DNA from: Bacteroidales bacterium
Lineage (GTDB): Bacteria > Bacteroidota > Bacteroidia > Bacteroidales > GWF2-38-335
Assembly: GCA_016936815.1 (NCBI GenBank)
Contig: JAFGXD010000090.1
Location: forward strand, 67,833 to 131,832
Reading direction: 5' to 3'
DNA: 64,000 nt
The position numbers were made by a program, and so were the translations under genes. Position 1 is the stretch's first letter. Each line of letters starts with the position of its first letter. Shown one piece after another: positions 21,462-56,882 of this stretch. Under the pieces are notes generated by a model. The model was not told where the DNA came from and did not search any database. It worked only from the letters and a program-made list of their open reading frames with translations.

Positions 21462-21507
21462 AAAAACTATTTTTAATATACAAATATAATAAAAAACACA
21501 AGTCCAA

Positions 21508-21558
21508 CTGCACAAATTTTAATAAATATATGCAGTTAGCTGCATAAATTTTAATAAA
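21508..21558. repeat. 19-nt direct repeat (CTGCAcAAATTTTAATAAA / CTGCAtAAATTTTAATAAA, 32-nt period) flanking a short palindrome TGCAG-TTAG-CTGCA
   Basis: Read directly at 21508-21526 and 21540-21558, with the palindrome at 21531-21544. It lies just upstream of a TATATTTG -7 box (minus strand, 21481-21488) for the ATPase gene. Confidence 0.6.
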
Positions 21559-41957: not shown

Positions 41958-44180
41958 ATGAAAAAGATTCAAATAATTGTTTTTTCACTTTTTTACCTTT
42001 ATAATTATTCTCAAAATAGGGAATTAGACTCGTTGCAAAACTTATACAATAACACCGAAATTGATTCAGTTAAAATAGAGCTGTTAAATGAGGAAATAGG
42101 ATATTTTTATGAACGCAATAATCCGGACTCTGCAATTTATTATTACGAAAAATCAATAGAAATGGCGAACAGTCATTTGAAAAATATTGACAAAAAACCT
42201 AGCAATGAACAATTAACCTATTTAAAACTTAAAGCAAATGCATTACGATATATAGGAATAGTATATTATGAAAAGGGAACTTACGATAAAGCAATAAAAA
42301 ATGTACTGGAATCTTTAGGAATTTATGAAGGTATTATTGGGAATACAAAAAATAAACAAATTATTATTGATGCAAAAAACGGTCAAACTTACTGTTTTAT
42401 TCCCTTAGGAAATATTCATTACGATCAAAGTAGTTTCGATAAAGCACTCGAATACTATACAAAAGCACTAAGAATACATGATGAATTAGGAAATGTTCAG
42501 CCTAAATCCGGTTGTAATGTTAATATTGGAAATGTGTATTTTGAGAAAAAACAACTTGATAAAGCGTTGGAATTCTATTTTAAAGCGTTGGAAATAGCTG
42601 AATCTTTAGGTGATAAAAAATCTATGTCGAAATGCTATAATAATATTGCCAATGTATTTTCCTTACAGAACAAATTTGAGAATGTAATAGAGTATTATTC
42701 TAAATCTTTGAAAATTAAAGAAGAAACATCCGACAAGCATGGTGTTGCTATGGTAAATACAAACCTTGCCGAATTATATGTAAGAATGGCAGATTCACTT
42801 TACGAAAAAAACAATCCGGCAAAGAGACTTGAAGCTCTAAATCTTGCAATAGAACATGGCAAAAGAGGTTTAGAAATAGCTAAAGAAATAGATGCTCTCC
42901 CATTAATAAATCCTTCGGCAAGTGCTATAATGAGAGCTTACAAAAGATTAGGAAACTTTTCGGAGGCATTTAAATATGCTGAAATATATATGGAAAGCAA
43001 GGATAGCATGTTTCAGGATGAAAAAATAAAATCGATTTCCGATGCTGAAAAACGTTTCGAAACAGAAAAAAAGCAATTAATGATTGACAAGCTAAATCAG
43101 GAAAAAGAAATAAATGAATATGAATTGTTAGTACAAAAAGAACAAGCCGACCGTCAGAATCTATTTATATGGTTTATTATTTCCGGTTTGTTGCTTATGG
43201 TTGTTTTTGCTGTATTTATTGTAAACAGACTAAGAATTACACGTAAACAGAAGAAAATAATTGGATTACAAAAAAAGGTGGTCGATGAAAAGAATATTCG
43301 TTTAAACCAACATATAGAAGAAATAAGTGCACAACGCGATGAAATTGAAGCCCAAAGAGATTTGCTTGAAGTTCAAAATCAACACATTGAATATCAAAAG
43401 CAAAGAATAACAGACAGTATTAATTATGCCAAAAGAATTCAAGAAGCAGTTTTGCCAACCGGTGAATATGCCAACAGAATTTTAGGTGAACATTTTATTT
43501 TATTTAAACCAAAAGATATTGTTTCTGGAGATTTTTATTGGGCAACCAGAATAAATAATTTTCTTATTGTTACAGTAGTAGATTGCACAGGACATGGAGT
43601 TCCGGGAGCTTTCATGAGTATGCTGGGCGTATCTTTTCTCAACGAAATTGTTAGAAAAAAAGAAGTTACTAAAGCATCTGATGTTCTCGATAGTTTAAGA
43701 AGTTCAATAATTGAAGCTCTGCAGCAAAAGAAAATGCTGATGCATAACAGTAGAGTTTCTTTAAGTGTAAAAGATGGTATGGATTTGGTATTATGTGTTT
43801 TAGATATTAATACAAAAATTCTGGAATTTGCCGGCGCCAATAATCCCCTATATATTGTAAAAACCAATAAAGAATTAATTGAATTATTGCCAGATAAACA
43901 ACCGGTTGCCATTTACGAAAAAATGAAACCTTATACTAACAATACCATTCAACTGGAAAAAGGAGATGCTGTTTATTTATGTACAGATGGTTTTTCTGAC
44001 CAGTTCGGGGGAGAGAAATGCAAGAAATTTATGGCTAAAAACCTAAAAGTATTATTTGTAGAAATTGCTGAAAAGTCTATGCAAGAACAAAATGTCATTC
44101 TTAATGATACCTTTAATAAATGGAAAGGAGATACCGACCAAATTGATGATGTTACAATTTTGGGATTAAGAATAGAATAA
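41958..44180 (+). CDS. Sensor phosphatase: signal peptide, extracytoplasmic TPR array, TM helix, heptad signalling helix, SpoIIE/PP2C domain (paralog 1)
   Basis: 740 aa. TM helix LFIWFIISGLLLMVVFAVFIV. Heptads HIEEISA/QRDEIEA/QRDLLEV/QNQHIEY/QKQRITD. PP2C motifs VSGDFYW, DCTGHGVPGAFMSMLG, KDGMD, TDGFSDQFGG, QIDDVTILGL. Confidence 0.85.
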   Translation: MKKIQIIVFSLFYLYNYSQNRELDSLQNLYNNTEIDSVKIELLNEEIGYFYERNNPDSAIYYYEKSIEMANSHLKNIDKKPSNEQLTYLKLKANALRYIGIVYYEKGTYDKAIKNVLESLGIYEGIIGNTKNKQIIIDAKNGQTYCFIPLGNIHYDQSSFDKALEYYTKALRIHDELGNVQPKSGCNVNIGNVYFEKKQLDKALEFYFKALEIAESLGDKKSMSKCYNNIANVFSLQNKFENVIEYYSKSLKIKEETSDKHGVAMVNTNLAELYVRMADSLYEKNNPAKRLEALNLAIEHGKRGLEIAKEIDALPLINPSASAIMRAYKRLGNFSEAFKYAEIYMESKDSMFQDEKIKSISDAEKRFETEKKQLMIDKLNQEKEINEYELLVQKEQADRQNLFIWFIISGLLLMVVFAVFIVNRLRITRKQKKIIGLQKKVVDEKNIRLNQHIEEISAQRDEIEAQRDLLEVQNQHIEYQKQRITDSINYAKRIQEAVLPTGEYANRILGEHFILFKPKDIVSGDFYWATRINNFLIVTVVDCTGHGVPGAFMSMLGVSFLNEIVRKKEVTKASDVLDSLRSSIIEALQQKKMLMHNSRVSLSVKDGMDLVLCVLDINTKILEFAGANNPLYIVKTNKELIELLPDKQPVAIYEKMKPYTNNTIQLEKGDAVYLCTDGFSDQFGGEKCKKFMAKNLKVLFVEIAEKSMQEQNVILNDTFNKWKGDTDQIDDVTILGLRIE

Positions 44181-44228
44181 TAATCATTAAAAGAATAGCT
44201 AATAATTAGAAATTCTTATGTTTGTATT

Positions 44229-46490
44229 ATGAACAATTTTTTCCTTGTCCTAATATTATGTGTTTTTCTTTTGAAAACCGGAATCTCTCAAACAAAGAAA
44301 ATTGATAGCTTGACCAATCAAATAGAAATTCTACCTTCCGGTGCCGAAAAAGTGGATACCTACATCAGACTTTTTCATGTTTATAGAGACATTAATACCG
44401 ATTCCGCTATTTTTTGCATTGAAAAAGCTGAAAATGAAGCAAAAAAAATTAACAATCCAAAAAAAATAGGGGATGTTAAACTAAACTACGGTATTTTATG
44501 TCGCTATACCAATGAATTCGATAAATCGGAAAATTACTATCTTGAAGCAATTGACATCTATAGAAAACATGCTGATTCTTTGGGTGTTTCATCAGGATAT
44601 AATAATTTGGGTTCACTTATGGCCGATTTGGGAAAGTTTTCTGAAGCTCTAAACTATTATCTTTCTGCTTTGCGAATTGATGAAAGTTTGCAAGACTTAG
44701 GTAATCTGGCTAATTCTTATAATAATGTTGGACTTATTCATTACAATTTGGAAAACTATGACAAAGCAATGGATTATTATCTAAAATCCTTAGATGTAAG
44801 AAAACAATTGGGCGACACCTTAGAATTTGCTCTTATTTACAACAACATAGGAATTTTATACTATTTCGAAGAAAAATACGAAAAGACATTGCAATATTTC
44901 AATATGGCTTTGGAAATTTGGGAACGTTACGGAAGAAAACGAAGAATGGCAATGCCTTTATATAATCTTGCAGAACTTTATATGGAGCTTTTTCAGTATA
45001 AAGAAGCTCTAAGCAATATTCAAAAAGCTACTACTATTAACGAGGAATTATGCGACAGCTTTGAGCTAATTTCTAATTATAATTTAATGGCTGAAATATA
45101 TCAGAAACGTAAAGACTACAAGAATGCAGAAATAAACTATCTTAAGGCTCTTGAACTTACTAAAGTAACAAAATCATTTGCTGAAATACATGCTGTTTAC
45201 GGCAAAATATCCGATTTTTATGAGGAGACAGGAAACCCCGGAAAAGCTTTGAAATTTTTTAAGGAATATCATGCTCTTAACGATTCCATTTTTAACCTTA
45301 AATCTACTGAGGCTATGGCAAAAATGCAAGCCGAATACGATAGAGATAAAAAACTGCTTTTAAAAGATGCTCAAATTAAGCAACAAGCTGTAGAGAAACA
45401 AAAAATGCAGGCCGAAAAGGCTAAACAACAAACAATTAACATATTTCTAATTGTAGGTCTGGGATTGGCTTCTGTGTTGGGAATTGTAATTTTTATGAAC
45501 TATAAGCGAAAAAAACGCGACAATTTGGTTCTAACCCTAAAGAACGAAGAAATAAGACAACAAAAAGAAGAAATTGAAGCCCAAAGAGATGAAATTGAGT
45601 GTCAAAGAGATGAGATTGAAATTCAGAGAGATAGTGTAATGGCTCAAAGAGATTTAATATCTAAGCAAAAAAAATCTTTAGACGACAGTATTGTATATGC
45701 CGAAAGAATTCAAAGGGCTTTATTACCATCCCGGGAAATGCTTAAAAAGGAATTCGAAGACTATTTTATTAGCTTTTTGCCCAGAGATGTGGTTTCAGGA
45801 GACTTTTATTGGAGTACAAGAATGGGAAAAAGCCTAATTATTGCTGCCGCAGATTGTACAGGACATGGAGTTCCGGGAGCATTAATGAGTATGTTAGGTA
45901 TTTCTTTTCTTAACGAAATTGTTAACGGTTATGGAATACAAAAAACTAACGAAATAGCTAACAGATTAAGAGAAATGGTAATTCAGGCATTAAAACAAAA
46001 AGAGCTTGATTCTACACAAAAAGACGGAATGGATTTAGCAATTGTTAACATTAATATGGAAACCCTTAGCTTAAGTTTTACCGGAGCAAACAATCCACTT
46101 TATATTATCAGCAATAATTCAAGAACCGACTTGGAAAAATATAAATCGGCAGAACTTCAAGATGTTGCACTTTACGAAATTAAAGGAGATAAAATGCCTG
46201 CAGCAATTCATGTTGTTATGCAACCTTTTAATTCAACAAATATTAAAATTTTTAACGGCGATAGTGTTTATCTATTTTCCGATGGATTTGCCGATCAGTT
46301 TGGAGGAGAAACTATTAATGGAAAGAAATTCAAATATAAAGCCTTCAAAGATTTACTTCTAAAAATTAATAATAAACCTATGTGCGAACAAAAAGAAATT
46401 ATTGAAAAAACTTTTTTTAATTGGAAAGGAGCTTTCATGCAAATGGACGACTTACTGGTAATGGGAATTAGAGTCTTTTCCAAAAAATAA
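44229..46490 (+). CDS. Sensor phosphatase TPR-TM-signalling helix-SpoIIE/PP2C (paralog 2)
   Basis: 753 aa with the same architecture. It has six heptads (QKEEIEA QRDEIEC QRDEIEI QRDSVMA QRDLISK QKKSLDD). PP2C motifs VSGDFYW, DCTGHGVPGALMSMLG, KDGMD, SDGFADQFGG, QMDDLLVMGI. Confidence 0.85.
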   Translation: MNNFFLVLILCVFLLKTGISQTKKIDSLTNQIEILPSGAEKVDTYIRLFHVYRDINTDSAIFCIEKAENEAKKINNPKKIGDVKLNYGILCRYTNEFDKSENYYLEAIDIYRKHADSLGVSSGYNNLGSLMADLGKFSEALNYYLSALRIDESLQDLGNLANSYNNVGLIHYNLENYDKAMDYYLKSLDVRKQLGDTLEFALIYNNIGILYYFEEKYEKTLQYFNMALEIWERYGRKRRMAMPLYNLAELYMELFQYKEALSNIQKATTINEELCDSFELISNYNLMAEIYQKRKDYKNAEINYLKALELTKVTKSFAEIHAVYGKISDFYEETGNPGKALKFFKEYHALNDSIFNLKSTEAMAKMQAEYDRDKKLLLKDAQIKQQAVEKQKMQAEKAKQQTINIFLIVGLGLASVLGIVIFMNYKRKKRDNLVLTLKNEEIRQQKEEIEAQRDEIECQRDEIEIQRDSVMAQRDLISKQKKSLDDSIVYAERIQRALLPSREMLKKEFEDYFISFLPRDVVSGDFYWSTRMGKSLIIAAADCTGHGVPGALMSMLGISFLNEIVNGYGIQKTNEIANRLREMVIQALKQKELDSTQKDGMDLAIVNINMETLSLSFTGANNPLYIISNNSRTDLEKYKSAELQDVALYEIKGDKMPAAIHVVMQPFNSTNIKIFNGDSVYLFSDGFADQFGGETINGKKFKYKAFKDLLLKINNKPMCEQKEIIEKTFFNWKGAFMQMDDLLVMGIRVFSKK

Positions 46491-46566
46491 AACCTTATTA
46501 GTTTTAACCCGTAAACGGAAAAGTTTGAAACGAATTAATGGTATTATTGCCTAAGAAAACTAAAAT

Positions 46567-48765
46567 ATGAGAAAAATCCTACTGTTTGTTCTAATATTTA
46601 ACCTTTTGTCTTATAATTTCTTAGCAAATGAAATAGATAGTTTAATGAATTTAATTAAACTTGAAAAAAACGATTCTATTAAAGCTTCATTGTATTTGGA
46701 AGCTTATGTTTATACAAAATATAACAATTTTGATTCTTCCCTAAAATATATTAAAGAAGCTGAAAAAATAGCCAAAGCCCACAAAATGCAAGTTCTTCTT
46801 GCCATGTGTTATAACGATTTCGGTAATTACTACGAAAAATGCAGTGAATACGATAAATCTTTGGAATATTATAATAAATCTTTGGAAATTTATTCGAAAC
46901 ACCAACATAAAAAAGGAATTGCCGATGCCTACGTAAATATGGGAATTGTTCAGGAAAAAACAGGCAATTACGAAAAATCTTTGCAATTATATTTAAAAGG
47001 TCTTGAAATAGACGAACAAAGAGGAGATTCTGCTTCAATTGCAGGAAGTTACAATAACATAGGATTAGTATTTAGGAGAATTGGCGATTATAATAAGTCT
47101 AGGGAATATCTACTAAAATCTGTTGAAATAAAAAAGAAATTACCCGATAAAAACAGCCTTGCTATTACCCTTAACAACCTTGGGGTGGCAGAAATAATGA
47201 TGGAAGATATTCCCGCAGGTCTGAAATATTTTAAAGATGCACTAAAAATTTATGAAGAATTAAATAACATACGAGGTATTGCCGATGCTTCAGGAAATAT
47301 TGGAAATGTTTACCGAAAAAATAAAGATTACGAAAATGCACATAAATATCTGCTTTTTGCACTTGAAAAAAGACAAGAAATGAAAGAGTATTTTGGGCAA
47401 GCAAAAAATCTTATAATGATTGCCGACAATTTGCGTGAATCAGGTAAAACTAAAGAAGCAATGGTTTATGCAAATAAAGGACTTGAACTGGCACAAAAAA
47501 TAAAAACTCCTGAAATAGAAATGGAATCGTATAGAAGCATTTCAAATATTTATTCTGAAAAAGGAGATTATAAAAACGCCTTGTCTTTTTACATTAAAAT
47601 GAGCGAATTTAAAGACAGCCTTTACAAAGCAGGCATTTCATCTACAATACAGGAACTAGAAGCAAAATATGAATTTTCTAAAAAGCAGGAAGAAATAGCA
47701 ACTCTTGAAAAAGAAAAACTAGCCGATAAACTAAAAATTGCTGAAGAAAAAGAAGCCAATCGTCAACAAAAACTAACTAACGAAAAACAAAAAATTGCAC
47801 TTTTTGCTGCCTTAATAGGATTGCTAATAATTTCCATTTTTTCTATTGTAGTATTCAGGCTTTTTAGACAAAAACGACAGGCTAATATTTTACTTAACCA
47901 ACAAAAAGAGGAAATCCTTTCCCAAAGAGATGAAATAGAGGCACAACGAGATTTGGCAGCACAACAAAGAGACCTTATCTCGGAACAAAAACAAGATATT
48001 ACTGATAGTATTCAATATGCATATAAAATACAATCGGCTATTTTTCCAAATCCTGAAGAAATTAAACTGGTACTAAACGACTTTTTTATTTTTTATAAAC
48101 CACGTGATATTGTTTCAGGAGATTTCTACTGGGTTTCTAAGCAAGGGAAAAAGGTAATTATTATAGCTGCCGATTGCACAGGACACGGGGTCCCGGGAGC
48201 TTTTATGAGTATGTTGGGTGTAGCCTTTCTTAATGAAATAGTAAATAAAGAAAACATTAGCTCTCCCGATACTATCTTAAACCGCTTGAGAGAAAACATT
48301 ATTCTTGCCCTAAAACAAACCAACCAGTCGGGCGAACAAAAAGACGGAATGGATGTGGCCGCAATTACTATAGATACAGAAAACAATACCGTAAGTTTTT
48401 CGGGCGCAAACAACCCTCTTTACCTTATTAAAAATAATAAATTGCTTGAAATAAAAGGCGATAAAATGCCGGTTTCAATTCACACACAAATGAAACCATT
48501 TACTTTGCATAAATTTAATGTTGAAAAAAATGATAATGTATATATTTTCTCCGATGGATTTCCGGATCAGTTTGGAGGACCCAAAGGAAAAAAATTCAAA
48601 TATCAACAGTTTAAACTTTTGCTTGAAAGTATTTCAGAAAAACCTATGGTAGAACAAGAAAAAATTTTAAATGAAACTTTTAATAATTGGATTAATTATT
48701 CAAATAACTATGAAGTAAGATACGAACAAATAGATGATGTGCTAGTAATGGGAATAAAACTTTAA
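46567..48765 (+). CDS. Sensor phosphatase TPR-TM-signalling helix-SpoIIE/PP2C (paralog 3)
   Basis: 732 aa with five heptads (QKEEILS QRDEIEA QRDLAAQ QRDLISE QKQDITD). PP2C motifs VSGDFYW, DCTGHGVPGAFMSMLG, KDGMD, SDGFPDQFGG, QIDDVLVMGI. Confidence 0.85.
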   Translation: MRKILLFVLIFNLLSYNFLANEIDSLMNLIKLEKNDSIKASLYLEAYVYTKYNNFDSSLKYIKEAEKIAKAHKMQVLLAMCYNDFGNYYEKCSEYDKSLEYYNKSLEIYSKHQHKKGIADAYVNMGIVQEKTGNYEKSLQLYLKGLEIDEQRGDSASIAGSYNNIGLVFRRIGDYNKSREYLLKSVEIKKKLPDKNSLAITLNNLGVAEIMMEDIPAGLKYFKDALKIYEELNNIRGIADASGNIGNVYRKNKDYENAHKYLLFALEKRQEMKEYFGQAKNLIMIADNLRESGKTKEAMVYANKGLELAQKIKTPEIEMESYRSISNIYSEKGDYKNALSFYIKMSEFKDSLYKAGISSTIQELEAKYEFSKKQEEIATLEKEKLADKLKIAEEKEANRQQKLTNEKQKIALFAALIGLLIISIFSIVVFRLFRQKRQANILLNQQKEEILSQRDEIEAQRDLAAQQRDLISEQKQDITDSIQYAYKIQSAIFPNPEEIKLVLNDFFIFYKPRDIVSGDFYWVSKQGKKVIIIAADCTGHGVPGAFMSMLGVAFLNEIVNKENISSPDTILNRLRENIILALKQTNQSGEQKDGMDVAAITIDTENNTVSFSGANNPLYLIKNNKLLEIKGDKMPVSIHTQMKPFTLHKFNVEKNDNVYIFSDGFPDQFGGPKGKKFKYQQFKLLLESISEKPMVEQEKILNETFNNWINYSNNYEVRYEQIDDVLVMGIKL

Positions 48766-48910: not shown

Positions 48911-50035
48911 ATGTTAGAAGAAACGGAAAATAGAAAGTTGAATTTTGCTCTGGAACTGTTCAGAATAATGCAGAAAGACAATCTGGGTTATATTTACAGG
49001 GGTAGATTCAATCAGGAGATAACCGACAGTATCTTGTCGCTTACCGAAACTAATTTAGATAAGGAAGAAGAATCTCCTAAAATTAAAAAGAGAGTATATT
49101 CCATTATGGTAGAATGTTTACAAAACATTACAAGACATCAGGATGATACCAAAGAAGAATCCAATGATAGTTTTGGTGTTTTTGTTATTCAAAAAGAAGG
49201 TGAGAAATACTACATTACCAGCGGTAATCTTATTGATAAAGAAAACATTCCAAACATAACCGACCTTATTGAAAAGATAAACAGTCTCGATAAAGACGAG
49301 TTGAAAGATTATTATAAAGAGGTTTTGTCTACCGGTGAATTATCGAGCAAAGGAGGTGCCGGTTTAGGTCTCATTGATATGGCTAGAAAATCCGGAAATA
49401 AACTGGCATATAGGTTTAAAGATGTTTCAGAAAAATTTGCGTATTTCTACTTACATACTATTCCTTCATTAAGTGTTGAAGGTGAAGATTTCGCCGACGA
49501 TGAATCGCTAACAAATATTGTTCATATTCACGAAATTTTAAATAACGAAAACATACTTCTAATTTTTAATGGGGTATTTAATCAGGGTTCACTCTTAAGT
49601 CTGCTTAACACTATTGAAGGTCAAATGGCCGGCCCTGCTAATACCAGAAGAAAAATGTTTTACATTGTGGTTGAAATGCTTCAAAACATTGTAAAACACG
49701 GATATAGTAATAAAAACAGTATTGGAAATCCCGGTCTGTTTTTAATAAGTGAAAAAGATGATAATTATTTTCTTACAACAGGAAATTATATTGAAAAACA
49801 AAATGTTGCAACTTTAAAGAAAAAATTAGAGAAGGTAAACAGTTTATCAGGAAAAGATTTGGAAAATTATTATAATGAGAGATTAGTTGACTTCGACAGC
49901 GACAATAATAAAAAATCGGGGTTGGGCGTTATTGACCTTAAAATGAAATCGGAAAATGAACTAAGGTTCGAACTTACAGAATTGGACGACAAAATGTCGT
50001 TTTTTGTACTTCAAGCCAAGGTGAAAATTACATAA
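48911..50035 (+). CDS. Tandem-duplicated SiaB/RsbW-like GHKL serine/threonine protein kinase (two modules in one polypeptide)
   Basis: 374 aa, read as two homologous halves of about 185 aa offset by about 187 residues. N-box-like E-x3-N-x3-H occurs in both (VECLQNITRH with E68/N72/H76; VEMLQNIVKH with E255/N259/H263). ATP-lid GGAGLGLIDMARKSGN is in half 1 versus KKSGLGVIDLKMKSEN in half 2. Other aligned blocks: FGVFVIQKEGEKYYITSGN / PGLFLISEKDDNYFLTTGN and SLDKDELKDYY / SLSGKDLENYY. Confidence 0.7.
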   Translation: MLEETENRKLNFALELFRIMQKDNLGYIYRGRFNQEITDSILSLTETNLDKEEESPKIKKRVYSIMVECLQNITRHQDDTKEESNDSFGVFVIQKEGEKYYITSGNLIDKENIPNITDLIEKINSLDKDELKDYYKEVLSTGELSSKGGAGLGLIDMARKSGNKLAYRFKDVSEKFAYFYLHTIPSLSVEGEDFADDESLTNIVHIHEILNNENILLIFNGVFNQGSLLSLLNTIEGQMAGPANTRRKMFYIVVEMLQNIVKHGYSNKNSIGNPGLFLISEKDDNYFLTTGNYIEKQNVATLKKKLEKVNSLSGKDLENYYNERLVDFDSDNNKKSGLGVIDLKMKSENELRFELTELDDKMSFFVLQAKVKIT

Positions 50036-50038: not shown

Positions 50039-50410
50039 ATGAATTCATTTATTTTAGAACCTGCAGAAGATACTCCGGAAATAAATTTTAATCCGGAAAC
50101 CAATGTTTTCTATATTTCTAAAAGATCTTTACCCGAAAATGCAATTGATTACTATGGGCCCGTATTAGAATGGATTCAAGGCTTCTTAGATGAGAAGCCT
50201 AAGCAACTTACCATTGAATTTAAACTTGAGTATTTTAATACTGCCTCGGCAAAACAGTTGGCTAAACTGCTTTTGGTTTTAGAAAAATATAAAGAAAGCA
50301 CAAAAATATTGGTTAATTGGTTTTATAAACCTGAAGATAAAGACATGTTAGCTTCCGGAACCAGATTTTCAAAACTTATTCCTATTGATTTTAATTTTAT
50401 CGAGTATTAA
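50039..50410 (+). CDS. DUF1987 protein (SiaC-like regulatory phosphoprotein)
   Basis: 123 aa. ILEPAEDTPEINFNPETNVFYISKRSLPENAIDYYGPVLEWIQ and FKLEYFNTASAKQL match the DUF1987 pattern as I remember it. Thr68 (codon 50240-50242) sits in the YFNT motif. The start is 3 nt after the kinase stop. Confidence 0.75.
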   Translation: MNSFILEPAEDTPEINFNPETNVFYISKRSLPENAIDYYGPVLEWIQGFLDEKPKQLTIEFKLEYFNTASAKQLAKLLLVLEKYKESTKILVNWFYKPEDKDMLASGTRFSKLIPIDFNFIEY

Positions 50411-50413: not shown

Positions 50414-52777
50414 TTATACCCTTATTCCAAAAACAAGCACATCGTCCATTTGCTGAGAATTACCCACCCAACCATCAAACTCCCCACTTAATTCAGAAAG
50501 TTGCTCTTTTATGCTTTTATTACTTAAACCTACAAGAAGATTTTCGAAACGCGAAGCCATGTATTTGCTATTGTCTTCTCCGCCAAACTGGTCTTTATAA
50601 CCATCTGTAAACAAATAAATCATGGTTCCTTTATCAAATTCAAGTTTATGTGTATTATAAACAACTTCTTCTTTTTGTGAGAAATAGCCTCCTATATTAA
50701 AAATATCTCCTTCAACTTGTTTTAGAATTCTGTTTTTAATTAAAAATATTGAATTATTAGCTCCTGCAAAAAATATTTCTCCGGAGTTTTTGTCAATTTT
50801 TAATAAAGAAATCACCATTCCATCGTTTTGAGCATCGTCGGCATTTTCTCCTTGTTTTAGAGCCTTTATTACTCCTTTGTTAAGATTGTATAGTATTTCA
50901 GATGGCTCAAATATTTCTTTTTCATTAACAATTTCACTAAGTAAAGTATGTCCAATCATACTCATAAAAGCCCCCGGGACCCCGTGTCCTGTGCAATCAA
51001 CAATCGCTAAAAACACCATATTCTCTTTTTCCGAAAACCAATAAAAATCTCCTGAAACAACATCCTTCGGTCTAAAAAACACAAACGATTCGGGAAAAAC
51101 TCTTTCAATATCTTTATTTGATGGCAAGATTGATTCCTGAATTTTTTTTGCATATTGTATGCTATCGGTAATAATCTTATGCGATTTGTGTAATAACTCT
51201 CTTTGTAATTCAATTTCACTGTTTCTTTTAAGCAATTCTCTATTTGCTCTTTTCTTTAGTTGATTTCTGCCAAAAAGCATTATTGCCAAAGTAAACAAGA
51301 AAAGTAATCCACCAATGGCTGTGTAAATTATTGTTTTATTTCTTTGTTGTTCATTTTTATGCCGTGAATCCGAAAGTTGTTGCTCCTTTTTTAATAGTTC
51401 ATTTTTTTTCTTTATTTCATCTAACTTATATCTTATCTGCATTTCCGACAACAACTTAGATTTTTCTTTGTCCATTATTGAATCTTTATACTGCGAATGA
51501 ATATTTAGATAATCGAATGCCAATTCCTTTTTTCCTAATTTTTCTAATGCATGAGCAAGCTCAAAACTGCTTTCTTTTATTCCTTCAAAATAACCAATAG
51601 AAAAAGAAATTTTCATTGCTTCCTCCAATAAAATAATTGCAACATTAATTTGATCTCTATGAATTTTAATTCCGGCAATTATTATCTTGCTGTTTACCAG
51701 CCCCTTTCTGTCGTTTATCTCATATTGAAATGTAGCACTCTTTTCAATATAATTTAAAGCATTTTTGTATTGTTCTAAATGAAAATACAGAGTACCAATA
51801 TTAAACAACAATGTTGCTTGTTCAGGCTTAAAGCCCTTTTTTTCAGCAAGTTCATATGCTTTTTCAAAATAAATTATTGCCGAATCGGCCTTTTGTATTT
51901 GATTGTAAATACTTCCAATATTGGTAAGTGCATTTACAAGGCCTTTTGTATCACCTCTTTCTATACAAATTCTCTGAGCATTTACACAATATCCCATAGC
52001 TGTTTCCCATTCTCCCTGCTTATTTTGTATGCTGCTAATATTAAGATATAAAGAAGCTAATAATGATTTGTCATTAATTCTTTCTAATATTTCCATTGCA
52101 TTAAAATAATGTTCAATAGCTAATTTTAAGCTTCCAATATCTTCATATATTACGCCTAAATTCGAAAGGTTAGTTGCAATACCAAGTTCATTTTTGTTTA
52201 TTCTGCATATTTCAAGCGATTTTTCATAAAGTTCAATAGCTTTTTGATGTTGACCTGTTAACTTATAACAAAGCCCCAGATTGCTTACGGGCTTACTGTC
52301 TTCTCCCGGTTTACCATGTTTCTGAAGAACATCTATAGAATTTTTTAAATATTGAATAGAAGTGGAATAATCGCCTTTATCCAAATAAATTAAACCTAAA
52401 ATGTTGTATTGAAGGCCTTCCAGACGTTTATTTTTTCCTTTTTTGGCAAGTTCGAAAGCCCTAAGCGATAAAATTTCAGCAGAATCAAGATTTCCTCTAA
52501 GCAAATGATAGGTTGCAAGATTGTCGTAGCTAAATAATAACCCGTTGTTATATTTATTTTTCTTAGCTAGAACTAATGCCTGATAAGAATACTGTGCATT
52601 TAATTGTGGATTAGAATATTTGTATTCGCTAGCTAAACTATTTAATAGGTCGGTTTTTTGGTTTTCATTTTGTGCATAAGAAAGAGCCAATTTCAAACTA
52701 TCTGCAATATTATTCGAAAATCCGGAAGAGAAACAGATAATAAAAAATATTACAAGTCTATTTTTCATAAATTTCAA
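50414..52777 (-). CDS. Sensor phosphatase TPR-TM-signalling helix-SpoIIE/PP2C (paralog 4)
   Basis: 787 aa with a signal peptide and a long TPR array. TM helix IIYTAIGGLLFLFTLAIMLFG. Three heptads (RNSEIEL QRELLHK SHKIITD). PP2C motifs VSGDFYW, DCTGHGVPGAFMSMIG, NDGMV, TDGYKDQFGG, QMDDVLVFGI. Confidence 0.85.
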   Translation of the reverse strand: MKFMKNRLVIFFIICFSSGFSNNIADSLKLALSYAQNENQKTDLLNSLASEYKYSNPQLNAQYSYQALVLAKKNKYNNGLLFSYDNLATYHLLRGNLDSAEILSLRAFELAKKGKNKRLEGLQYNILGLIYLDKGDYSTSIQYLKNSIDVLQKHGKPGEDSKPVSNLGLCYKLTGQHQKAIELYEKSLEICRINKNELGIATNLSNLGVIYEDIGSLKLAIEHYFNAMEILERINDKSLLASLYLNISSIQNKQGEWETAMGYCVNAQRICIERGDTKGLVNALTNIGSIYNQIQKADSAIIYFEKAYELAEKKGFKPEQATLLFNIGTLYFHLEQYKNALNYIEKSATFQYEINDRKGLVNSKIIIAGIKIHRDQINVAIILLEEAMKISFSIGYFEGIKESSFELAHALEKLGKKELAFDYLNIHSQYKDSIMDKEKSKLLSEMQIRYKLDEIKKKNELLKKEQQLSDSRHKNEQQRNKTIIYTAIGGLLFLFTLAIMLFGRNQLKKRANRELLKRNSEIELQRELLHKSHKIITDSIQYAKKIQESILPSNKDIERVFPESFVFFRPKDVVSGDFYWFSEKENMVFLAIVDCTGHGVPGAFMSMIGHTLLSEIVNEKEIFEPSEILYNLNKGVIKALKQGENADDAQNDGMVISLLKIDKNSGEIFFAGANNSIFLIKNRILKQVEGDIFNIGGYFSQKEEVVYNTHKLEFDKGTMIYLFTDGYKDQFGGEDNSKYMASRFENLLVGLSNKSIKEQLSELSGEFDGWVGNSQQMDDVLVFGIRV

Positions 52778-52778: not shown

Positions 52779-55700
52779 TTATTCTTTTATTGAAAAACCT
52801 ATTACAAGAACATCATCTATTTGTCTTTGGTCTTTTTTCCAATCGGTAAATGCTAACTCTAAAGCTTCCTTTTGTTGCTGCATTTTAAGATTATTGTTAG
52901 CTGTTAGGAATTCCTCGAATCTGGCAGCCAAAAACTTATTATTATTTTCTCCGCCAAACTGGTCTTGAAATCCGTCGGTGTACATATAAACAGAGGTTTT
53001 CTCTACAATTTTAATATTATAATTTGTAAACTCAACATCTTCGCTAAATGAAAAGAATCCTCCTATAGAATAAATATCTCCTGCAATAATATTAGTCTTA
53101 TTTCCTTGAACCAGAAGAACATTGTGGTTGGCCGCAGATATTTCCAGACTGTTATTTTTCTTATCGTAACAGCAAACCGAAACGTCCATTCCATCGTCTT
53201 GTGTGTTTAGCGATTGTTCTGTTTGTTTTAAAACAGAAATAACTTGCTTATTTAGTAAACTAAGAATTTCAGAAGGTTTATGAATTTGTTTTTCTTTTAC
53301 AATTTCGTTAAGCAAAGTATTACCAATCATACTCATAAAAGCTCCAGGCACACCATGTCCGGTGCAATCGGCTACAGCAATAAATAATTTGTCTTCTGTT
53401 GTATGAAGCCAATAAAAATCGCCGGAAACAATATCTCTTGGTTTAAATAGAATAAATGATTCTGATAATATTTCTTTTAACTCGTCAATTCCCGGCAAAA
53501 TAGAATCCTGAATTTTTTTGGCATAAATAATACTGTCGGTAATTAAATTATGCGATTTTTCGAGTTCCTGATTGGCAATTTCGAGTTGGTCTTTTTGAGC
53601 CATAATCTCTTCTTTCTGTTGCATAATTTCTTCTTCAGCAGCTTTTACTTTACTTATATCCGAATCTATTGCAACCACTTTAATAACTTTTCCAAGCTCG
53701 TCTAAAACAGGTGTTAATGTTGTTTGTGTCCATAATTTTCCGTCTTTTGTTCTGGTCATAGATTCATAAATAACGGAAGCTTTTTCATCAACACATTTAT
53801 GAAAAATTTCGGCAATTCTTGGATTGGAACTAGATTTCAAAATGTTTCCACCTTTAATGTCAATGTATTGTTGAAGAGTAAAACCATATTTCTTGGTGAG
53901 ACTTTCGTTTACCCACTCAAAATTACCTTTTTCGTCCATTATTATTACAGCATTGTCGGTTTCTCTGGCAACAATAGAAAGTTTTTCAAGTTCCTTATTT
54001 GCATTTTCAAGCAAATCGCGCTGCGACATTATTTCTTCTTTCTGAATAAGTATTTCTTCTTCAGCTTGTTTTAGTTTGTTAATATTGGATTCAATAAGTA
54101 CAATTTTTCTAATATTTTTATCCCCGTCCATTACCGGAGTTAGAGTTGTTTGCATCCAAATATTTTTGTCTTTTGCAGGAAACTGAGCAGAATAAGAAAC
54201 CGACCTTTTTTCATTAAGACATTTATGAAAAATTTCATGTATTCTTTTACTGGAGCTGGATTCTAATATGTTTTTACCGTATTTAGCAATAAACTCATCC
54301 AAAGTATAACCATAAAGCCGGGTAAAGGCTTCGTTTGCCCATTCAAAATTACCTACCCCATCCATTATTAAAATGCTGTTATCGGTTTCTCTGGCTACCA
54401 ATGAAAGTTTTTCAAGCTCCGTATTTATGGTAATTAGTTGGTCGTTTGCCGATTGTATTTCTTCCTTCTGTTGCTGAATTTCTGCAGTTCGGTCGCTAAT
54501 AATTTTTTCTAACTTACGATTATCTGCTTTAAGCTTAATTGAGTAGATTCTCAGGACAATAAAAATAAGTATTACCCCAACACCAACATAAATTAAATAT
54601 GCCCACCAGGTTCTGTGCCAGGGAGGCAAAATTTCAAATGAATATACTGCAACCGGGCTTTCTAACCCGTATAAATTTTTAGATTTAACTTCAAATTTAT
54701 ATTCCCCTTCCGGAAGATTTGTATATTTAGCAGAAGTGTCTTTACTCCAATTTGTCCACTCATCGTCGTAACCAACCAGTCTCCATGAATAAAGGGTTCT
54801 TTCTTCGTAATGATAATATAAAGAGGCAAAACTAATTTCAATTGAGTTATTGCTAAAATTTATTTTAGGCAAGGAGTCTATTCCCTTAACATACATACCA
54901 TTAAATATTACCGAGTTTTTTCCAATAACTACTTTTTTAATTATTGTTTTTATGTTTTCTATTTCATTAATAACTATTTCGGGGTTATAACAAAACAAAC
55001 CTTCGTCGCCTCCAAACCAAAATAGTTTTTTAACTGTGTCGGCATAAACCATAAATATTGAACTTGAATTTGGAATATGTGTAAAAGGTTTCTCAATTAA
55101 AAAATATCCCTGATTACTTAATGAAACTACTCCAACTCGCGACTGTCCATTTGTTGCAAGAAACTTATTTCCAATATTTTCACTTGCTCTCTCGATTATA
55201 AATTTTTTTTCTGCCAAGTCCGAAAAAATTTTATTATTTTTTACAAAAAGATTTTCTTCTTTCACAACTGCTGCATCGGGATTATATATATAAGTTTCAC
55301 TTGTATCCATAACCATAAGTTTAGTATCTATAAAAAATGGTTTGGTAAAATTTTTTGGAAGCCCATGCTCAATTGAAAAATAATCTATCCTGCAATTAGA
55401 ACTAATTGAATCCCTGAAGTTTATTCTTGCCATTTTTTGTCCTTCGCTAATCCAACAATCGCCTTTAGAATCGATATAAAAATATTGCAACTCCTCATGA
55501 AAAACATCAATTGACCCTAAGCCTTTCCATTTTTTACCTTCAATTTTATAAATATACAGACCATTATCGTCGCCTATTAAAACATAATCCGTTTGTAAAG
55601 GGTGCTGACGTATTGCCCTGATACGATTATGTTTATTGAATTCTTTGGCTTTCAAACCTTCAATAGTGAAAATTCCTTCTCGTGATGCTGCATAAAGTTC

Positions 55701-56882
55701 TCCATTTATTTCATTAATTGCCAGACATCCGTCTTTTATTCCCTCAACAGGCTGAAAATGAAAATTGGCCGAATTCTTATCAGCAACAGTATTTTCAACA
55801 ATTAACATATACAAACCATCCATTGTAGCTACATAAAGGTTGTTTTTGTACCTAATTGCCTGAATAACAAGCCCGGAAAGACCTGTGTTTTCGCCAAAAT
55901 GAGTAACAGGAGCATCCAAATTCACTCTAGCCAGACCTTTATTAAGCATTATCCACAATACATTGTTTTCATCTACAAAAACATTATTAACTGTTTCTGT
56001 TTCAAGTCCGGTTTGCTTGTTTAATAATCTTTTAAGTTTTCCGCTTCTGTCCATTATTATTACTCCGGCATAATCCGTTGCAAGTAAATAATATCCGTTC
56101 TTTATTACAATTCCGGTATATAAACCATTTGTTTTTATATAATCATCAAAAGAGGTGTGCAAAGGTTTAATTGTATCATCAATAAGACTTAGGATAAAAA
56201 GTCCGTCTTTATTGGTTCCTACAAGAAGTGTATTTTCTGTATAAGGCAAAACAACGTAAACATCTTTATCGGCAAAAAAATCTCCTGAGGGCAACAAAGA
56301 AAGTTGGTTTCCCGAAAACATTGAAAGTCCACTTCCTTTAACATAGGCCAAAATAAAACTTTCTATCTGAAATATTTTAATAATTGGTTGTTCAGACTTT
56401 ATTGTTGATAGGTTTTCGTTCTCAAGAACAAAAATTTTTGAAAGACCATTAAAAACAACTCGGGATTTATCTATTAATATTTGTCTGATTTCGAAACCTA
56501 AATCCTTTTCTGATAATGATTTAGAAATAATATGAGGTGATATTCTTCCAACACTATCGGGTTTTAAATAACCAAAAACGTTGCTGCCTCCAAAATATAT
56601 TCTTCCGTTATGGTCTTTTGCAAGAGATCTGCAAACCCCACCAATTCTTATTGTTCTCCAACTTACACCGTCGTATTCTAAAATTCCATTACCATTTCCA
56701 ACATAAACCATTCCTCTGTTATCTTTTACAAATGCCCAGTTTTGGGGATGTCCGTTGTAATCGGCCGGACTAAAATTTCTAATTTCCGGAGATCCTATTC
56801 CAATGGAATTTAAGTCTTGTCCCTGTACATAGGTGAAAGAAAAAAACAGAAAAATCAGAATTTTGTTCTTATATTTATGCAT
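52779..56882 (-). CDS. Sensor phosphatase: signal peptide, twin Reg_prop beta-propellers plus Y_Y_Y domain (HTCS-type periplasmic sensor), TM helix, 2 x (coiled coil + PAS), SpoIIE/PP2C
   Basis: 1367 aa. The periplasmic part is about 730 aa and ends in YSWRLVGYDDEWTNWSKDTSAKYTNLPEGEYKFEVKSKN (Y_Y_Y). TM helix WWAYLIYVGVGVILIFIVL. Two near-identical PAS modules follow. PP2C motifs VSGDFYW, DCTGHGVPGAFMSMIG, DDGMD, TDGFQDQFGG, QIDDVLVIGF. The stop is 1 nt from the start of paralog 4. Confidence 0.85.
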   Translation of the reverse strand: MHKYKNKILIFLFFSFTYVQGQDLNSIGIGSPEIRNFSPADYNGHPQNWAFVKDNRGMVYVGNGNGILEYDGVSWRTIRIGGVCRSLAKDHNGRIYFGGSNVFGYLKPDSVGRISPHIISKSLSEKDLGFEIRQILIDKSRVVFNGLSKIFVLENENLSTIKSEQPIIKIFQIESFILAYVKGSGLSMFSGNQLSLLPSGDFFADKDVYVVLPYTENTLLVGTNKDGLFILSLIDDTIKPLHTSFDDYIKTNGLYTGIVIKNGYYLLATDYAGVIIMDRSGKLKRLLNKQTGLETETVNNVFVDENNVLWIMLNKGLARVNLDAPVTHFGENTGLSGLVIQAIRYKNNLYVATMDGLYMLIVENTVADKNSANFHFQPVEGIKDGCLAINEINGELYAASREGIFTIEGLKAKEFNKHNRIRAIRQHPLQTDYVLIGDDNGLYIYKIEGKKWKGLGSIDVFHEELQYFYIDSKGDCWISEGQKMARINFRDSISSNCRIDYFSIEHGLPKNFTKPFFIDTKLMVMDTSETYIYNPDAAVVKEENLFVKNNKIFSDLAEKKFIIERASENIGNKFLATNGQSRVGVVSLSNQGYFLIEKPFTHIPNSSSIFMVYADTVKKLFWFGGDEGLFCYNPEIVINEIENIKTIIKKVVIGKNSVIFNGMYVKGIDSLPKINFSNNSIEISFASLYYHYEERTLYSWRLVGYDDEWTNWSKDTSAKYTNLPEGEYKFEVKSKNLYGLESPVAVYSFEILPPWHRTWWAYLIYVGVGVILIFIVLRIYSIKLKADNRKLEKIISDRTAEIQQQKEEIQSANDQLITINTELEKLSLVARETDNSILIMDGVGNFEWANEAFTRLYGYTLDEFIAKYGKNILESSSSKRIHEIFHKCLNEKRSVSYSAQFPAKDKNIWMQTTLTPVMDGDKNIRKIVLIESNINKLKQAEEEILIQKEEIMSQRDLLENANKELEKLSIVARETDNAVIIMDEKGNFEWVNESLTKKYGFTLQQYIDIKGGNILKSSSNPRIAEIFHKCVDEKASVIYESMTRTKDGKLWTQTTLTPVLDELGKVIKVVAIDSDISKVKAAEEEIMQQKEEIMAQKDQLEIANQELEKSHNLITDSIIYAKKIQDSILPGIDELKEILSESFILFKPRDIVSGDFYWLHTTEDKLFIAVADCTGHGVPGAFMSMIGNTLLNEIVKEKQIHKPSEILSLLNKQVISVLKQTEQSLNTQDDGMDVSVCCYDKKNNSLEISAANHNVLLVQGNKTNIIAGDIYSIGGFFSFSEDVEFTNYNIKIVEKTSVYMYTDGFQDQFGGENNNKFLAARFEEFLTANNNLKMQQQKEALELAFTDWKKDQRQIDDVLVIGFSIKE
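53650..54500 (-). repeat. Internal tandem duplication of a (coiled-coil + PAS) module, about 142 aa / 425 nt per copy
   Basis: Copy 1 is AEIQQQKEEIQSANDQLITINTELEKLSLVARETDNSILIMDGVGNFEWANEAFTRLYGYTLDEF...IWMQTTLTPVMD. Copy 2 is EEEILIQKEEIMSQRDLLENANKELEKLSIVARETDNAVIIMDEKGNFEWVNESLTKKYGFTLQQY...LWTQTTLTPVLD. Confidence 0.8.

What the first reader, a model, noticed from the sequence alone, without database searches (positions are those of the whole stretch)
52779..56882. Polysaccharide-type HTCS periplasmic sensor rewired to a PP2C phosphatase output
Seen: the 1367-aa protein has a signal peptide, about 730 extracytoplasmic residues ending in a Y_Y_Y-type module (YSWRLVGYDDEWTNW...YTNLPEGEYKFEVKSKN), and one TM helix. 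The cytoplasmic part is two PAS modules plus PP2C. It lacks the HisKA/HATPase/receiver/AraC cascade. Established: the twin Reg_prop beta-propeller plus Y_Y_Y ectodomain is the glycan-binding sensor of Bacteroides hybrid two-component systems that control polysaccharide utilisation loci. Inference: an oligosaccharide-like periplasmic cue may feed into serine/threonine dephosphorylation (the Sia-like switch) rather than into transcription directly. The stop is 1 nt from the start of the next TPR-PP2C gene, so the two are probably co-transcribed.
Basis: partly seen in the sequence, partly recalled or inferred. Interest (0 to 1): 0.6.

Follow-up and report, generated by a model that had tools for sequence, protein, structure and literature searches.

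The report
Propeller-sensor phosphatase feeding a Sia-type switch
This gene encodes a membrane protein that joins the kind of outside-facing sensor gut Bacteroides use to detect complex sugars to a protein phosphatase, which most likely acts on a small phospho-switch protein encoded next door; the combination is real and never studied, but it is common in this bacterial group.

Summary
The ORF lies on the minus strand (52779-56882, 1367 aa, GenBank MBN2682180.1, a Bacteroidales MAG). It has a signal peptide, an ectodomain of about 738 aa, one TM helix (760-782), two PAS units and a C-terminal PP2C domain. It has no HisKA, HATPase, receiver or AraC domain.

An AlphaFold model of the ectodomain (pLDDT 88.7) matches the solved sensors of Bacteroides hybrid two-component systems (BT4663, TM 0.73; BT3049; BT4673) at only 15-16% identity. 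The PP2C domain is closest to P. aeruginosa SiaA (6K4E, TM 0.91) and keeps every metal-binding residue.

The gene sits in a cluster of five SiaA-like sensor phosphatases around a tandem-fused SiaB kinase and one SiaC phosphoprotein with its phospho-threonine conserved. This layout recurs in three other Bacteroidota MAGs. So the Sia-like inference is well supported by context.

The glycan-ligand inference is untested. There is no PUL in the 64 kb window or beside any of nine homologous loci.

The architecture is not rare. 148 of the 150 best cluster representatives (50% identity) carry both Y_Y_Y and PP2C, with heptad-quantised linkers. I found no paper describing it. The output of SiaC is unknown because no diguanylate cyclase is encoded nearby.

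Verdict: new variant of known kinds, moderate interest.

The parts
52779..56882 (-). Whole gene: sensor phosphatase, 1367 aa (MBN2682180.1)
   Evidence: ORF list and translation. Exact database match.
56820..56882 (-). Probable signal peptide (residues 1-21, MHKYKNKILIFLFFSFTYVQG)
   Evidence: Read from the sequence. This is the low-pLDDT N-terminus of the model. No signal-peptide predictor was available.
54963..56795 (-). Twin beta-propeller sensor region (about residues 30-640)
   Evidence: The AF2 model is all-beta with pLDDT mostly above 90. Foldseek full-length matches to BT4663 (4A2L/4A2M), BT3049 (3V9F) and BT4673 (3OTT/3VA6). Weak Pfam Reg_prop hit.
54630..54947 (-). Membrane-proximal Ig-like Y_Y_Y domain (about residues 646-751)
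   Evidence: Pfam Y_Y_Y, 57.5 bits, at 691-751. phmmer matches to 4A2L and 3V9F in this region, E about 1e-12.
54537..54605 (-). Single transmembrane helix (residues 760-782, WAYLIYVGVGVILIFIVLRIY)
   Evidence: Hydropathy scan; this is the only segment that passes.
54084..54533 (-). Signalling helix plus PAS unit 1 (residues 784-933)
   Evidence: Pfam PAS_9/PAS_3. AF2 cytoplasmic model: helix 784-832, PAS 836-933.
53658..54080 (-). Helix plus PAS unit 2 (residues 935-1075), a tandem duplicate of unit 1
   Evidence: Pfam PAS_4. 57% identity over 145 aa to unit 1. AF2 model.
53499..53654 (-). Long linker helix entering the phosphatase (residues 1077-1128)
   Evidence: AF2 model. It aligns to the helix that precedes the SiaA PP2C domain in 6K4E.
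52782..53498 (-). PP2C (PPM/SpoIIE-type) phosphatase domain with a complete metal-binding set: D1155, D1172, G1175, D1233, D1303, G1304, D1307, D1356/D1357
   Evidence: phmmer to 6K4E, E 1.1e-33. Foldseek to 6K4E, TM 0.91, rmsd 2.3 A. Residue mapping against the SiaA residues listed in PMC7647112.
50414..52777 (-). Downstream, probably co-transcribed TPR-TM-PP2C sensor phosphatase (787 aa from the TTG; the ATG at 52768 is the more likely start)
   Evidence: Pfam and NCBIfam. Topology.
50039..50410 (+). SiaC-family phosphoprotein (DUF1987, 123 aa), the proposed substrate; the threonine in FNTAS aligns with SiaC T68
   Evidence: Pfam SiaC, 121 bits. phmmer to 6K4F/6KKO. The role of T68 is taken from PMC8457831.
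48911..50035 (+). Tandem-fused SiaB-family protein kinase (two DUF6272 halves, 374 aa), the proposed opposing kinase
   Evidence: NCBIfam SiaB_fam_kinase, 280 bits against a cut-off of 85, two stretches. 6KKO_A match. The halves are 31% identical and both keep the E..LQNI and GLG(L/V)ID motifs.
41958..48765 (+). Three further TPR-TM-PP2C sensor phosphatase genes (41958-44180, 44229-46490, 46567-48765), upstream of and on the same strand as siaB/siaC
   Evidence: Pfam and NCBIfam. Catalytic motifs conserved.

Best explanation
The gene encodes a dimeric inner-membrane sensor phosphatase of the SiaA type.

Proposed mechanism:
1. A periplasmic module of two beta-propellers plus a Y_Y_Y domain, with the same fold as the sensors of Bacteroides hybrid two-component systems, detects an extracytoplasmic ligand. 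Its identity is unknown; a glycan is one candidate.
2. The signal passes through the single TM helix and a chain of coiled-coil helices interrupted by two duplicated PAS domains. The PAS domains could add cytoplasmic inputs.
3. This sets the activity of the C-terminal Mn/Mg-dependent PP2C domain.
4. The active phosphatase removes the phosphate from the conserved threonine of the neighbouring SiaC-family protein. The tandem-fused SiaB-family kinase puts the phosphate back.
5. Four TPR-sensor phosphatases in the same cluster act on the same SiaC, so the phosphorylation state of SiaC integrates several envelope signals.
6. Unphosphorylated SiaC then binds and regulates a target that is not encoded in the cluster. 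Unlike in Pseudomonas, that target is not an adjacent diguanylate cyclase.

Shown here: the architecture, the folds, the intact catalytic residues, the conserved phospho-threonine and the recurrent gene neighbourhood.
Inferred: the enzyme-substrate pairing, the direction of regulation, the ligand and the output.
For: Sensor:
- The AF2 ectodomain model (pLDDT 88.7) has BT4663, BT4673 and BT3049 as its 15 best PDB hits (E 1e-28 to 1e-33; TM up to 0.74 over about 790 columns).
- Pfam Y_Y_Y scores 57 bits.

Phosphatase:
- Its best sequence hit in the PDB is SiaA-PP2C 6K4E (E 1.1e-33). Its best structural hit is the same entry (TM 0.91, rmsd 2.3 A, 30% identity).
- NCBIfam's SiaA model is the top hit over the C-terminal 300 residues.
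- All SiaA active-site residues named in PMC7647112 (D457, D474, G477, D534, D600, G601, D604, D653) are conserved.

Partners:
- A SiaB-family kinase scores above the NCBIfam cut-off, and a SiaC family protein lies within 2.4 kb.
- The SiaC threonine equivalent to T68 is conserved.

Conserved context:
- All four PAS-containing relatives examined (the window, L001, L002, L008) sit beside a second sensor PP2C and a convergent double-SiaB plus SiaC pair.
- In a Vicingus MAG, a Reg_prop/Y_Y_Y/PP2C gene lies directly upstream of siaB-siaC on the same strand, like siaA.

Transmission:
- The AF2 cytoplasmic model shows helix-PAS-helix-PAS-long helix-PP2C.
- In the 124 of 148 family representatives with a linker shorter than 130 residues, the Y_Y_Y-to-PP2C distance is quantised in steps of seven: 118 of the 124 fall in two adjacent residue classes mod 7.
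- This fits the coiled-coil-linker control of PPM phosphatases described in PMC12143880.
Against: - No biochemical data exist for any member of this family.
- Most PAS-less members of the wider family are orphan genes far from any sia gene (P0009, P0019, P0020, P0029). Adjacency is therefore not a property of the whole family, and some members may have other substrates.
- The NCBIfam SiaA equivalog score (195 bits) is far below its 700-bit cut-off, because only the C-terminal half matches.
- No SiaD-like GGDEF gene or other conserved candidate output lies next to any locus, so the downstream half of the pathway is open.
- SiaB-SiaC pairs also occur without adjacent phosphatases (L005, L006, L009, L010).
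Confidence: 0.65

Rival explanations
1. One reading: the ectodomain binds a specific oligosaccharide, as HTCS sensors do, and so couples polysaccharide availability to the Sia-type phospho-switch instead of directly to PUL transcription.
For: - The fold is that of the heparin/heparan-sulphate sensor BT4663 and its paralogues.
- BguR has the same sensor class fused to a GerE DNA-binding domain and is genetically required for laminarin use (preprint 10.64898/2026.01.10.698779).
- The next structural neighbour, PorZ (5M11), is reported to handle anionic LPS (listing).
- In Pseudomonas the Sia pathway responds to carbon availability (title and abstract of PMC7647112).
Against: - Identity to the solved glycan sensors is only 15-16%, so binding-site residues cannot be transferred.
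- HTCS and BguR genes sit next to their PULs. Here no SusC/SusD pair or CAZyme cluster exists in 64 kb or beside nine homologous genes.
- The module is a promiscuous sensor fused to many outputs in several phyla, including KSB1, Acidobacteriota and Calditrichia.
Confidence: 0.3
2. The phosphatase does not act on SiaC. It acts on a classical STAS-type anti-sigma antagonist or another phosphoprotein encoded elsewhere, and its position near siaB/siaC is a consequence of sensor phosphatase genes clustering together.
For: - Bacterial PPM phosphatases of the RsbU/SpoIIE group typically act on STAS proteins (PMC11418112 abstract).
- Most PAS-less relatives are orphans.
- An ECF sigma/anti-sigma pair lies at the other end of the cluster.
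Against: - No STAS or RsbW-like gene is present in the window.
- The PP2C domain is much closer to SiaA (E 1e-33) than to any other solved PPM (next best is RssB at 2e-07).
- The neighbourhood with SiaB and SiaC is conserved in 4 of 4 close relatives, whereas the ECF pair is not.
Confidence: 0.12
3. The protein is a catalytically dead scaffold or a decaying paralogue among five redundant phosphatases.
For: There are five paralogous PP2C genes in 15 kb, and the two PAS units are a recent internal duplication. Both suggest rapid turnover of these genes.
Against: - All metal-binding and catalytic residues are intact.
- The ORF is uninterrupted over 4.1 kb in an AT-rich genome.
- Orthologues at 35-40% identity keep the full length and architecture in three other MAGs.
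- Both AF2 models are confident.
Confidence: 0.03

Closest known systems
SiaA of the Pseudomonas aeruginosa SiaABCD module (PP2C phosphatase; PDB 6K4E)
   Same: - The C-terminal PP2C domain is its closest solved relative by sequence and by fold, with the same metal ligands and the same preceding helix.
- The gene is encoded beside SiaB- and SiaC-family genes, and the SiaC threonine is conserved.
   Different: - SiaA has two TM segments and a HAMP domain as its input (PMC7647112). Here the input is a 738-aa propeller/Y_Y_Y ectodomain plus two PAS domains.
- There is no siaD diguanylate cyclase.
- The kinase is a tandem fusion.
- Five phosphatases share one SiaC.
- The NCBIfam SiaA equivalog cut-off is not reached (195 against 700 bits).
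Bacteroides hybrid two-component systems (BT4663, BT3049, BT4673; PDB 4A2L/4A2M, 3V9F, 3OTT/3VA6)
   Same: A periplasmic twin beta-propeller plus Y_Y_Y sensor followed by one TM helix; the structural match covers the full length.
   Different: - No HisKA, HATPase, receiver or AraC domain.
- The output is Ser/Thr dephosphorylation.
- The gene is not next to a PUL.
- 15-16% identity.
[quoted passage not shown]
   Same: Another case where the HTCS-type propeller/Y_Y_Y sensor is joined through a helical linker to a non-phosphorelay output.
   Different: - BguR's output is a GerE DNA-binding domain, and the gene is linked to beta-glucan PULs.
- Here the output is a PP2C phosphatase acting on a partner-switch protein, with no PUL linkage.
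RsbU/RsbP/RssB-type PPM phosphatases controlled through coiled-coil linkers (PMC12143880)
   Same: A sensor domain is joined to a dimeric PPM domain by a coiled-coil linker. The heptad-quantised linker lengths in this family fit that scheme.
   Different: - Those are cytoplasmic proteins that act on STAS proteins or serve as adaptor proteins.
- This one is a transmembrane receptor with a periplasmic sensor and a DUF1987 (SiaC) partner.

Membership tests
Hybrid two-component system (HTCS) | Periplasmic twin-propeller plus Y_Y_Y sensor and a TM helix | tested here: met
   Pfam Y_Y_Y. AF2 plus Foldseek to 4A2L, 3V9F and 3OTT. TM helix at 760-782.
Hybrid two-component system (HTCS) | HisKA and HATPase_c kinase core, receiver domain and AraC-type HTH in the same polypeptide | tested here: not met
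   None of these Pfam families is hit at E <= 0.01. The cytoplasmic part is fully accounted for by PAS, PAS and PP2C.
SiaA-type PP2C phosphatase (Sia partner-switch) | PPM/PP2C fold with a complete set of metal-binding aspartates | tested here: met
   6K4E E 1.1e-33 and TM 0.91. The equivalents of D457, D474, G477, D534, D600, G601, D604 and D653 are conserved.
SiaA-type PP2C phosphatase (Sia partner-switch) | Encoded with a SiaB kinase and a SiaC (DUF1987) phosphoprotein that carries the target threonine | tested here: met
   The SiaB_fam_kinase model scores above its cut-off. Pfam SiaC scores 121 bits. The threonine is aligned with T68. The synteny recurs.
SiaA-type PP2C phosphatase (Sia partner-switch) | Full-length equivalence to SiaA (two TM segments plus a HAMP input; NCBIfam NF038263 cut-off of 700 bits) | tested here: not met
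   195 bits; only model positions 357-657 match. The input domains are different.
SiaA-type PP2C phosphatase (Sia partner-switch) | SiaD diguanylate cyclase as the operon-encoded output | tested here: not met
   No GGDEF domain was found in any ORF that was scanned; these cover most of the window, and a few short ORFs between about 22.5 and 31.4 kb were not scanned. None was found in loci L001, L002 or L008-L010.
SiaA-type PP2C phosphatase (Sia partner-switch) | Actual dephosphorylation of SiaC-P | not testable with these tools
   This needs an enzyme assay.
Reg_prop/Y_Y_Y ligand-binding sensors | Binding of a glycan ligand by the propeller pair | not testable with these tools
   Only the fold similarity could be shown, at 15-16% identity. 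There is no PUL context.

The most novel reading that the evidence does not exclude
Many Bacteroidota possess a multi-input Ser/Thr partner-switch hub. Several periplasmic sensor phosphatases, one with an HTCS-type propeller sensor that reads an envelope or environmental glycan and others with TPR sensors, converge on a single SiaC phosphoprotein. A covalently duplicated SiaB kinase opposes them. SiaC controls a target that is not a diguanylate cyclase. This would be a post-translational signalling layer for surface or polysaccharide cues, parallel to the transcriptional HTCS/PUL layer.
Probability: 0.25. Interest if true: 0.65.

Novelty: new variant of a known kind. Interest (0 to 1): 0.42.

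Why it matters
Glycan sensing in Bacteroidota is understood almost entirely as transcriptional control of PULs by HTCS, SusR-like and ECF/anti-sigma regulators. Here the same sensor fold drives a Ser/Thr phosphatase in a large, unstudied protein family. In one subfamily the phosphatase is wired to a Sia-type phospho-switch.

If the ligand and the SiaC target were identified, this would reveal a post-translational response to periplasmic cues in a phylum that dominates gut and marine polysaccharide turnover. It would also extend the Sia system, known only as a c-di-GMP and biofilm switch in Pseudomonas, to a different output.

The heptad-quantised linkers make the family a clean natural test set for the 'exchangeable coiled-coil toolkit' model of PPM, kinase and cyclase regulation.

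The limits are plain. Everything beyond architecture and context is inference. The architecture itself is abundant and already auto-annotated.

Tried and rejected
1. Plus-strand reading of the given coordinates: full of stops. The gene is on the minus strand.
2. Sigma-70 promoter and terminator scan of 48.7-57.2 kb: 40 promoter-like sites against 39 expected, and 2 terminator-like sites against 4.2 expected. This is uninformative, and Bacteroidota promoters are not modelled by the tool.
3. Genome-collection scan with the double SiaB protein: only 4 loci were found, because a single-sequence query reaches close relatives only.
4. Search for SiaC fusion proteins as a clue to its output: the 120 best of 545 homologues are all stand-alone proteins of 123-135 aa carrying only the SiaC domain.
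5. Search for a conserved non-Sia neighbour as a candidate output: none is shared across the window and L001, L002, L004-L006 and L008-L010. The ECF sigma/anti-sigma pair at 39959-41778 is not conserved in the other loci.
6. LOV or flavin photoreceptor reading of the PAS domains: there are only weak NCBIfam YtvA/LOV hits (E about 1e-5), and no NCRFLQ-type motif is visible in the sequence. Rejected.
7. Literature searches for Reg_prop/Y_Y_Y with SpoIIE, by name or by Pfam accession, found no paper that describes the combination. The library covers only open-access papers and bioRxiv.

Full report
**1. What is in the sequence**

The coordinates 52779-56882 hold one uninterrupted ORF on the minus strand (ATG start, 1367 aa). 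The plus strand of the same interval is full of stops. The protein is identical to GenBank MBN2682180.1. That entry is auto-named 'PAS domain S-box protein' and comes from a Bacteroidales bacterium MAG contig of 148,690 bp. The window has about 32% G+C and carries SprB-repeat proteins with type IX secretion tails, which fits Bacteroidota.

Pfam finds the following:
- Y_Y_Y at 691-751 (57.5 bits).
- A weak summed Reg_prop signal (33 bits, no single repeat significant).
- Two PAS domains (835-934 and 977-1079).
- SpoIIE/PP2C at 1163-1362.
- No HisKA, HATPase_c, receiver or AraC HTH.

A hydropathy scan finds one TM helix at 760-782. The N-terminus looks like a signal peptide.

The stop codon is followed after one base by a TTG. 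An ATG three codons further in is the likelier start of the next gene. The genes are tightly packed either way.

**2. The ectodomain**

The Reg_prop evidence is weak at sequence level, so I modelled residues 1-757 with an alignment of 57 relatives. The model has mean pLDDT 88.7 and pTM 0.86.

Foldseek against the PDB returns these as the 15 best hits:
- The periplasmic sensor of the heparin/heparan-sulphate HTCS BT4663 (4A2L/4A2M; E about 1e-32; TM 0.73-0.74 to the 4A2L form, which I recall as the ligand-free one; about 790 aligned columns).
- BT4673 (3OTT/3VA6).
- BT3049 (3V9F; TM 0.70).

PorZ follows, and after it come generic double propellers such as DDB1. The fold claim is confirmed.

Sequence identity is only 15-16%, so nothing about ligand specificity can be transferred.

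**3. The cytoplasmic part**

A second model (residues 783-1367, pLDDT 86.3) shows this layout:
- helix 784-832
- PAS 836-933
- helix 935-965
- PAS 978-1075
- a 50-residue helix, 1077-1128
- the PP2C domain

The two helix-plus-PAS units are a tandem duplication, 57% identical over 145 residues.

The PP2C domain's best PDB match is the SiaA phosphatase domain of P. aeruginosa, both by sequence (6K4E, E 1.1e-33; next is RssB at 2e-07) and by structure (TM 0.91, rmsd 2.3 A, 30% identity).

The SiaA active-site residues listed by Poh et al. (PMC7647112: D457, D474, G477, D600, G601, D653, plus D534 and D604) are all conserved. Here they are D1155, D1172, G1175, D1233, D1303, G1304, D1307 and D1356/D1357. 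The enzyme is therefore expected to be active.

**4. The neighbourhood**

This is where the finding gains most. The neighbouring genes are:
- Downstream on the same strand: a TPR-TM-PP2C protein (50414-52777).
- Convergent with it and 3 nt away: a SiaC-family protein (DUF1987, 50039-50410; Pfam 121 bits).
- Before that: a 374-aa SiaB-family kinase made of two DUF6272 halves (48911-50035; NCBIfam SiaB_fam_kinase 280 bits against a cut-off of 85).
- Upstream of those, on their strand: three more TPR-TM-PP2C genes (41958-48765).

These assignments rest.

All five phosphatases have an N-terminal signal-like sequence, one TM helix and a SiaA-like PP2C domain with the catalytic motifs intact. The one deviation is a D-to-V change in the downstream TPR protein, at the position of SiaA's auxiliary D534.

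The SiaC threonine that SiaB phosphorylates in Pseudomonas is conserved. That residue is T68 within N67-T68-S69, and its phosphorylation blocks SiaD binding (PMC8457831). Here the motif reads FNTAS.

No GGDEF (SiaD-like) protein was found in the ORFs scanned. These cover most of the window; a few short ORFs between about 22.5 and 31.4 kb were not scanned.

**5. Conservation of the layout**

The closest relatives with the same full architecture (35-40% identity) come from three other Bacteroidota MAGs. In each one the gene is followed by a second sensor PP2C (TPR or Reg_prop/Y_Y_Y type) and faces a double SiaB plus one or two SiaC genes (L001, L002, L008).

In a Vicingus sp. MAG, a PAS-less Reg_prop/Y_Y_Y/PP2C gene lies immediately upstream of a single-domain siaB and siaC on the same strand, the position siaA holds in Pseudomonas.

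By contrast, four PAS-less members of about 1100 aa are orphan genes among housekeeping genes. Double SiaB-SiaC pairs also occur without adjacent phosphatases.

None of the nine homologous loci has a SusC/SusD pair, and neither does the 64-kb window.

**6. How common the architecture is**

- Among the 120 best hits of the word-indexed search, 35 clusters (90% identity level) carry both Y_Y_Y and PP2C. Several are already named 'SpoIIE family protein phosphatase' or 'serine phosphatase RsbU'.
- An exhaustive phmmer search with a PAS-less member against 1.84 billion cluster representatives (50% identity) gave 150 listed hits, all at E <= 1e-177. By local HMM checks, 148 of them carry both domains and 14 also carry PAS-like domains. 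The list is truncated, so the family is larger than this.
- The same sensor also occurs with PAS-PAS-histidine kinase (31-33% identity to the target across sensor and PAS), GAF-kinase, full HTCS, adenylate cyclase, LuxR/GerE and TIR outputs.

The module is therefore a promiscuous sensor, and output swapping between kinase and phosphatase has happened among close relatives.

I found no paper describing the phosphatase combination. The closest published analogue of a 're-wired' HTCS sensor is the BguR preprint, which has a GerE output and controls laminarin use.

**7. Mechanistic clue from linker lengths**

In the 124 family representatives without inserted domains, the distance from the end of the Y_Y_Y match to the start of the PP2C match takes the values 57/58, 64/65, 71/72, 78/79, 85, 93, 100, 107, 114, 121 and 128.

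Of the 124, 118 fall into two adjacent residue classes modulo 7 (chi-square p about 1e-75, although the sequences are related and not independent).

Heptad-quantised length is what a continuous dimeric coiled coil from the membrane to the catalytic domain predicts. It matches the coiled-coil-linker control of PPM phosphatases proposed as a general, modular mechanism by Baral et al. (PMC12143880).

BT4663 signalling is described as a scissor-like movement of the dimer (review PMC8534201). Taken together, the most economical model is that ligand-induced re-positioning of the membrane-proximal Y_Y_Y domains changes the coiled-coil register or crossing angle. That change passes through the PAS dimers and sets PP2C activity.

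**8. Interpretation**

Best explanation (confidence about 0.65): a SiaA-type transmembrane sensor phosphatase that dephosphorylates the neighbouring SiaC. The tandem SiaB opposes it, and it is one of five sensory inputs to the same switch.

- For it: the fold and BguR.
- Against treating it as the default: the lack of any PUL linkage and the module's promiscuity.

The output of SiaC in these organisms is unknown. There is no adjacent cyclase, no fusion proteins appear among the 120 best of 545 homologues, and there is no conserved extra neighbour.

**9. Classification and score**

The protein is not an HTCS, because the kinase, receiver and AraC domains are absent. It is not an equivalog of SiaA, because its input domains differ, the NCBIfam cut-off is not met and there is no SiaD. 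It works like both: an HTCS-type sensor joined to a SiaA-type output.

I class it as a new variant of known kinds. It is abundant in databases and undescribed in the literature I could search. Interest is moderate (0.42). A specialist would find the combination plausible under the 'exchangeable toolkit' view. The multi-input SiaB2-SiaC hub without a cyclase, and the heptad-quantised family, do offer tractable open questions.

Noticed in passing
window 48911-50035 (+): The SiaB-family kinase is a covalent tandem duplication: two DUF6272 halves, 31% identical, each keeping the E..LQNI and GLG(L/V)ID motifs. The doubled form (354-379 aa) recurs in L001, L002, L008, L009 and L010. Flavobacteriales MAGs and Thiomargarita have the single 180-192-aa form, as Pseudomonas does.
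   Followed up: partly
148 cluster representatives (P0242-P0388 and others): Across Reg_prop/Y_Y_Y/PP2C proteins, the linker length between Y_Y_Y and PP2C is quantised in steps of seven residues from 57 to 128. 118 of the 124 short linkers fall in two adjacent classes mod 7. This implies a register-preserving coiled coil.
   Followed up: yes
window 53658-54533 (-): The two helix-plus-PAS units of the target are a recent internal tandem duplication: 57% identity over 145 aa, including the coiled-coil segment ELEKLS(L/I)VARETDN. One relative (L008) has a single PAS unit.
   Followed up: partly
window 39959-41778 (-): An ECF sigma factor and a zf-HC2 anti-sigma factor with a C-terminal TPR/FimV-like region are transcribed divergently from the first TPR-PP2C gene, 179 nt away. 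The pair is not conserved next to the Sia-type loci of the other MAGs, so a functional link is doubtful.
   Followed up: partly
window 50414-52777 (-): The downstream TPR-PP2C paralogue has DGMV where the other four phosphatases and SiaA have DGMD. This is the position of SiaA D534, which helps hold the third metal ion. All other catalytic residues are intact.
   Followed up: no
L011 1-11399 and L012 1-11357: Orphan PAS-less Reg_prop/Y_Y_Y/PP2C genes in two unrelated samples share upstream synteny: a divergent run of SurA/PpiD-like rotamase genes, a MoxR-type AAA ATPase and SelR. This hints at a periplasmic protein-folding or envelope context for that subfamily.
   Followed up: no
window 12788-18589 (+) and 32460-37466 (+): Two very large predicted type IX secretion cargo proteins (1933 and 1668 aa). 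Both have SprB repeats and a Por_Secre_tail; they also carry Laminin_G_3 (first) and FG-GAP (second) domains. They look like gliding or adhesin surface proteins.
   Followed up: no
L007 (Candidatus Thiomargarita nelsonii, LUTY01001871.1) 1113-2091: A SiaB-SiaC pair 33-34% identical to the window's proteins occurs in a giant sulfur gammaproteobacterium. The pair therefore spans distant phyla.
   Followed up: no
window 18590-21515 (-): A PRiA4_ORF3-like protein, a LuxC-like acyl-CoA reductase fragment and a DUF4143/AAA_14 ATPase sit directly after the first SprB giant gene. They may be mobile or defence-associated; I did not examine them.
   Followed up: no
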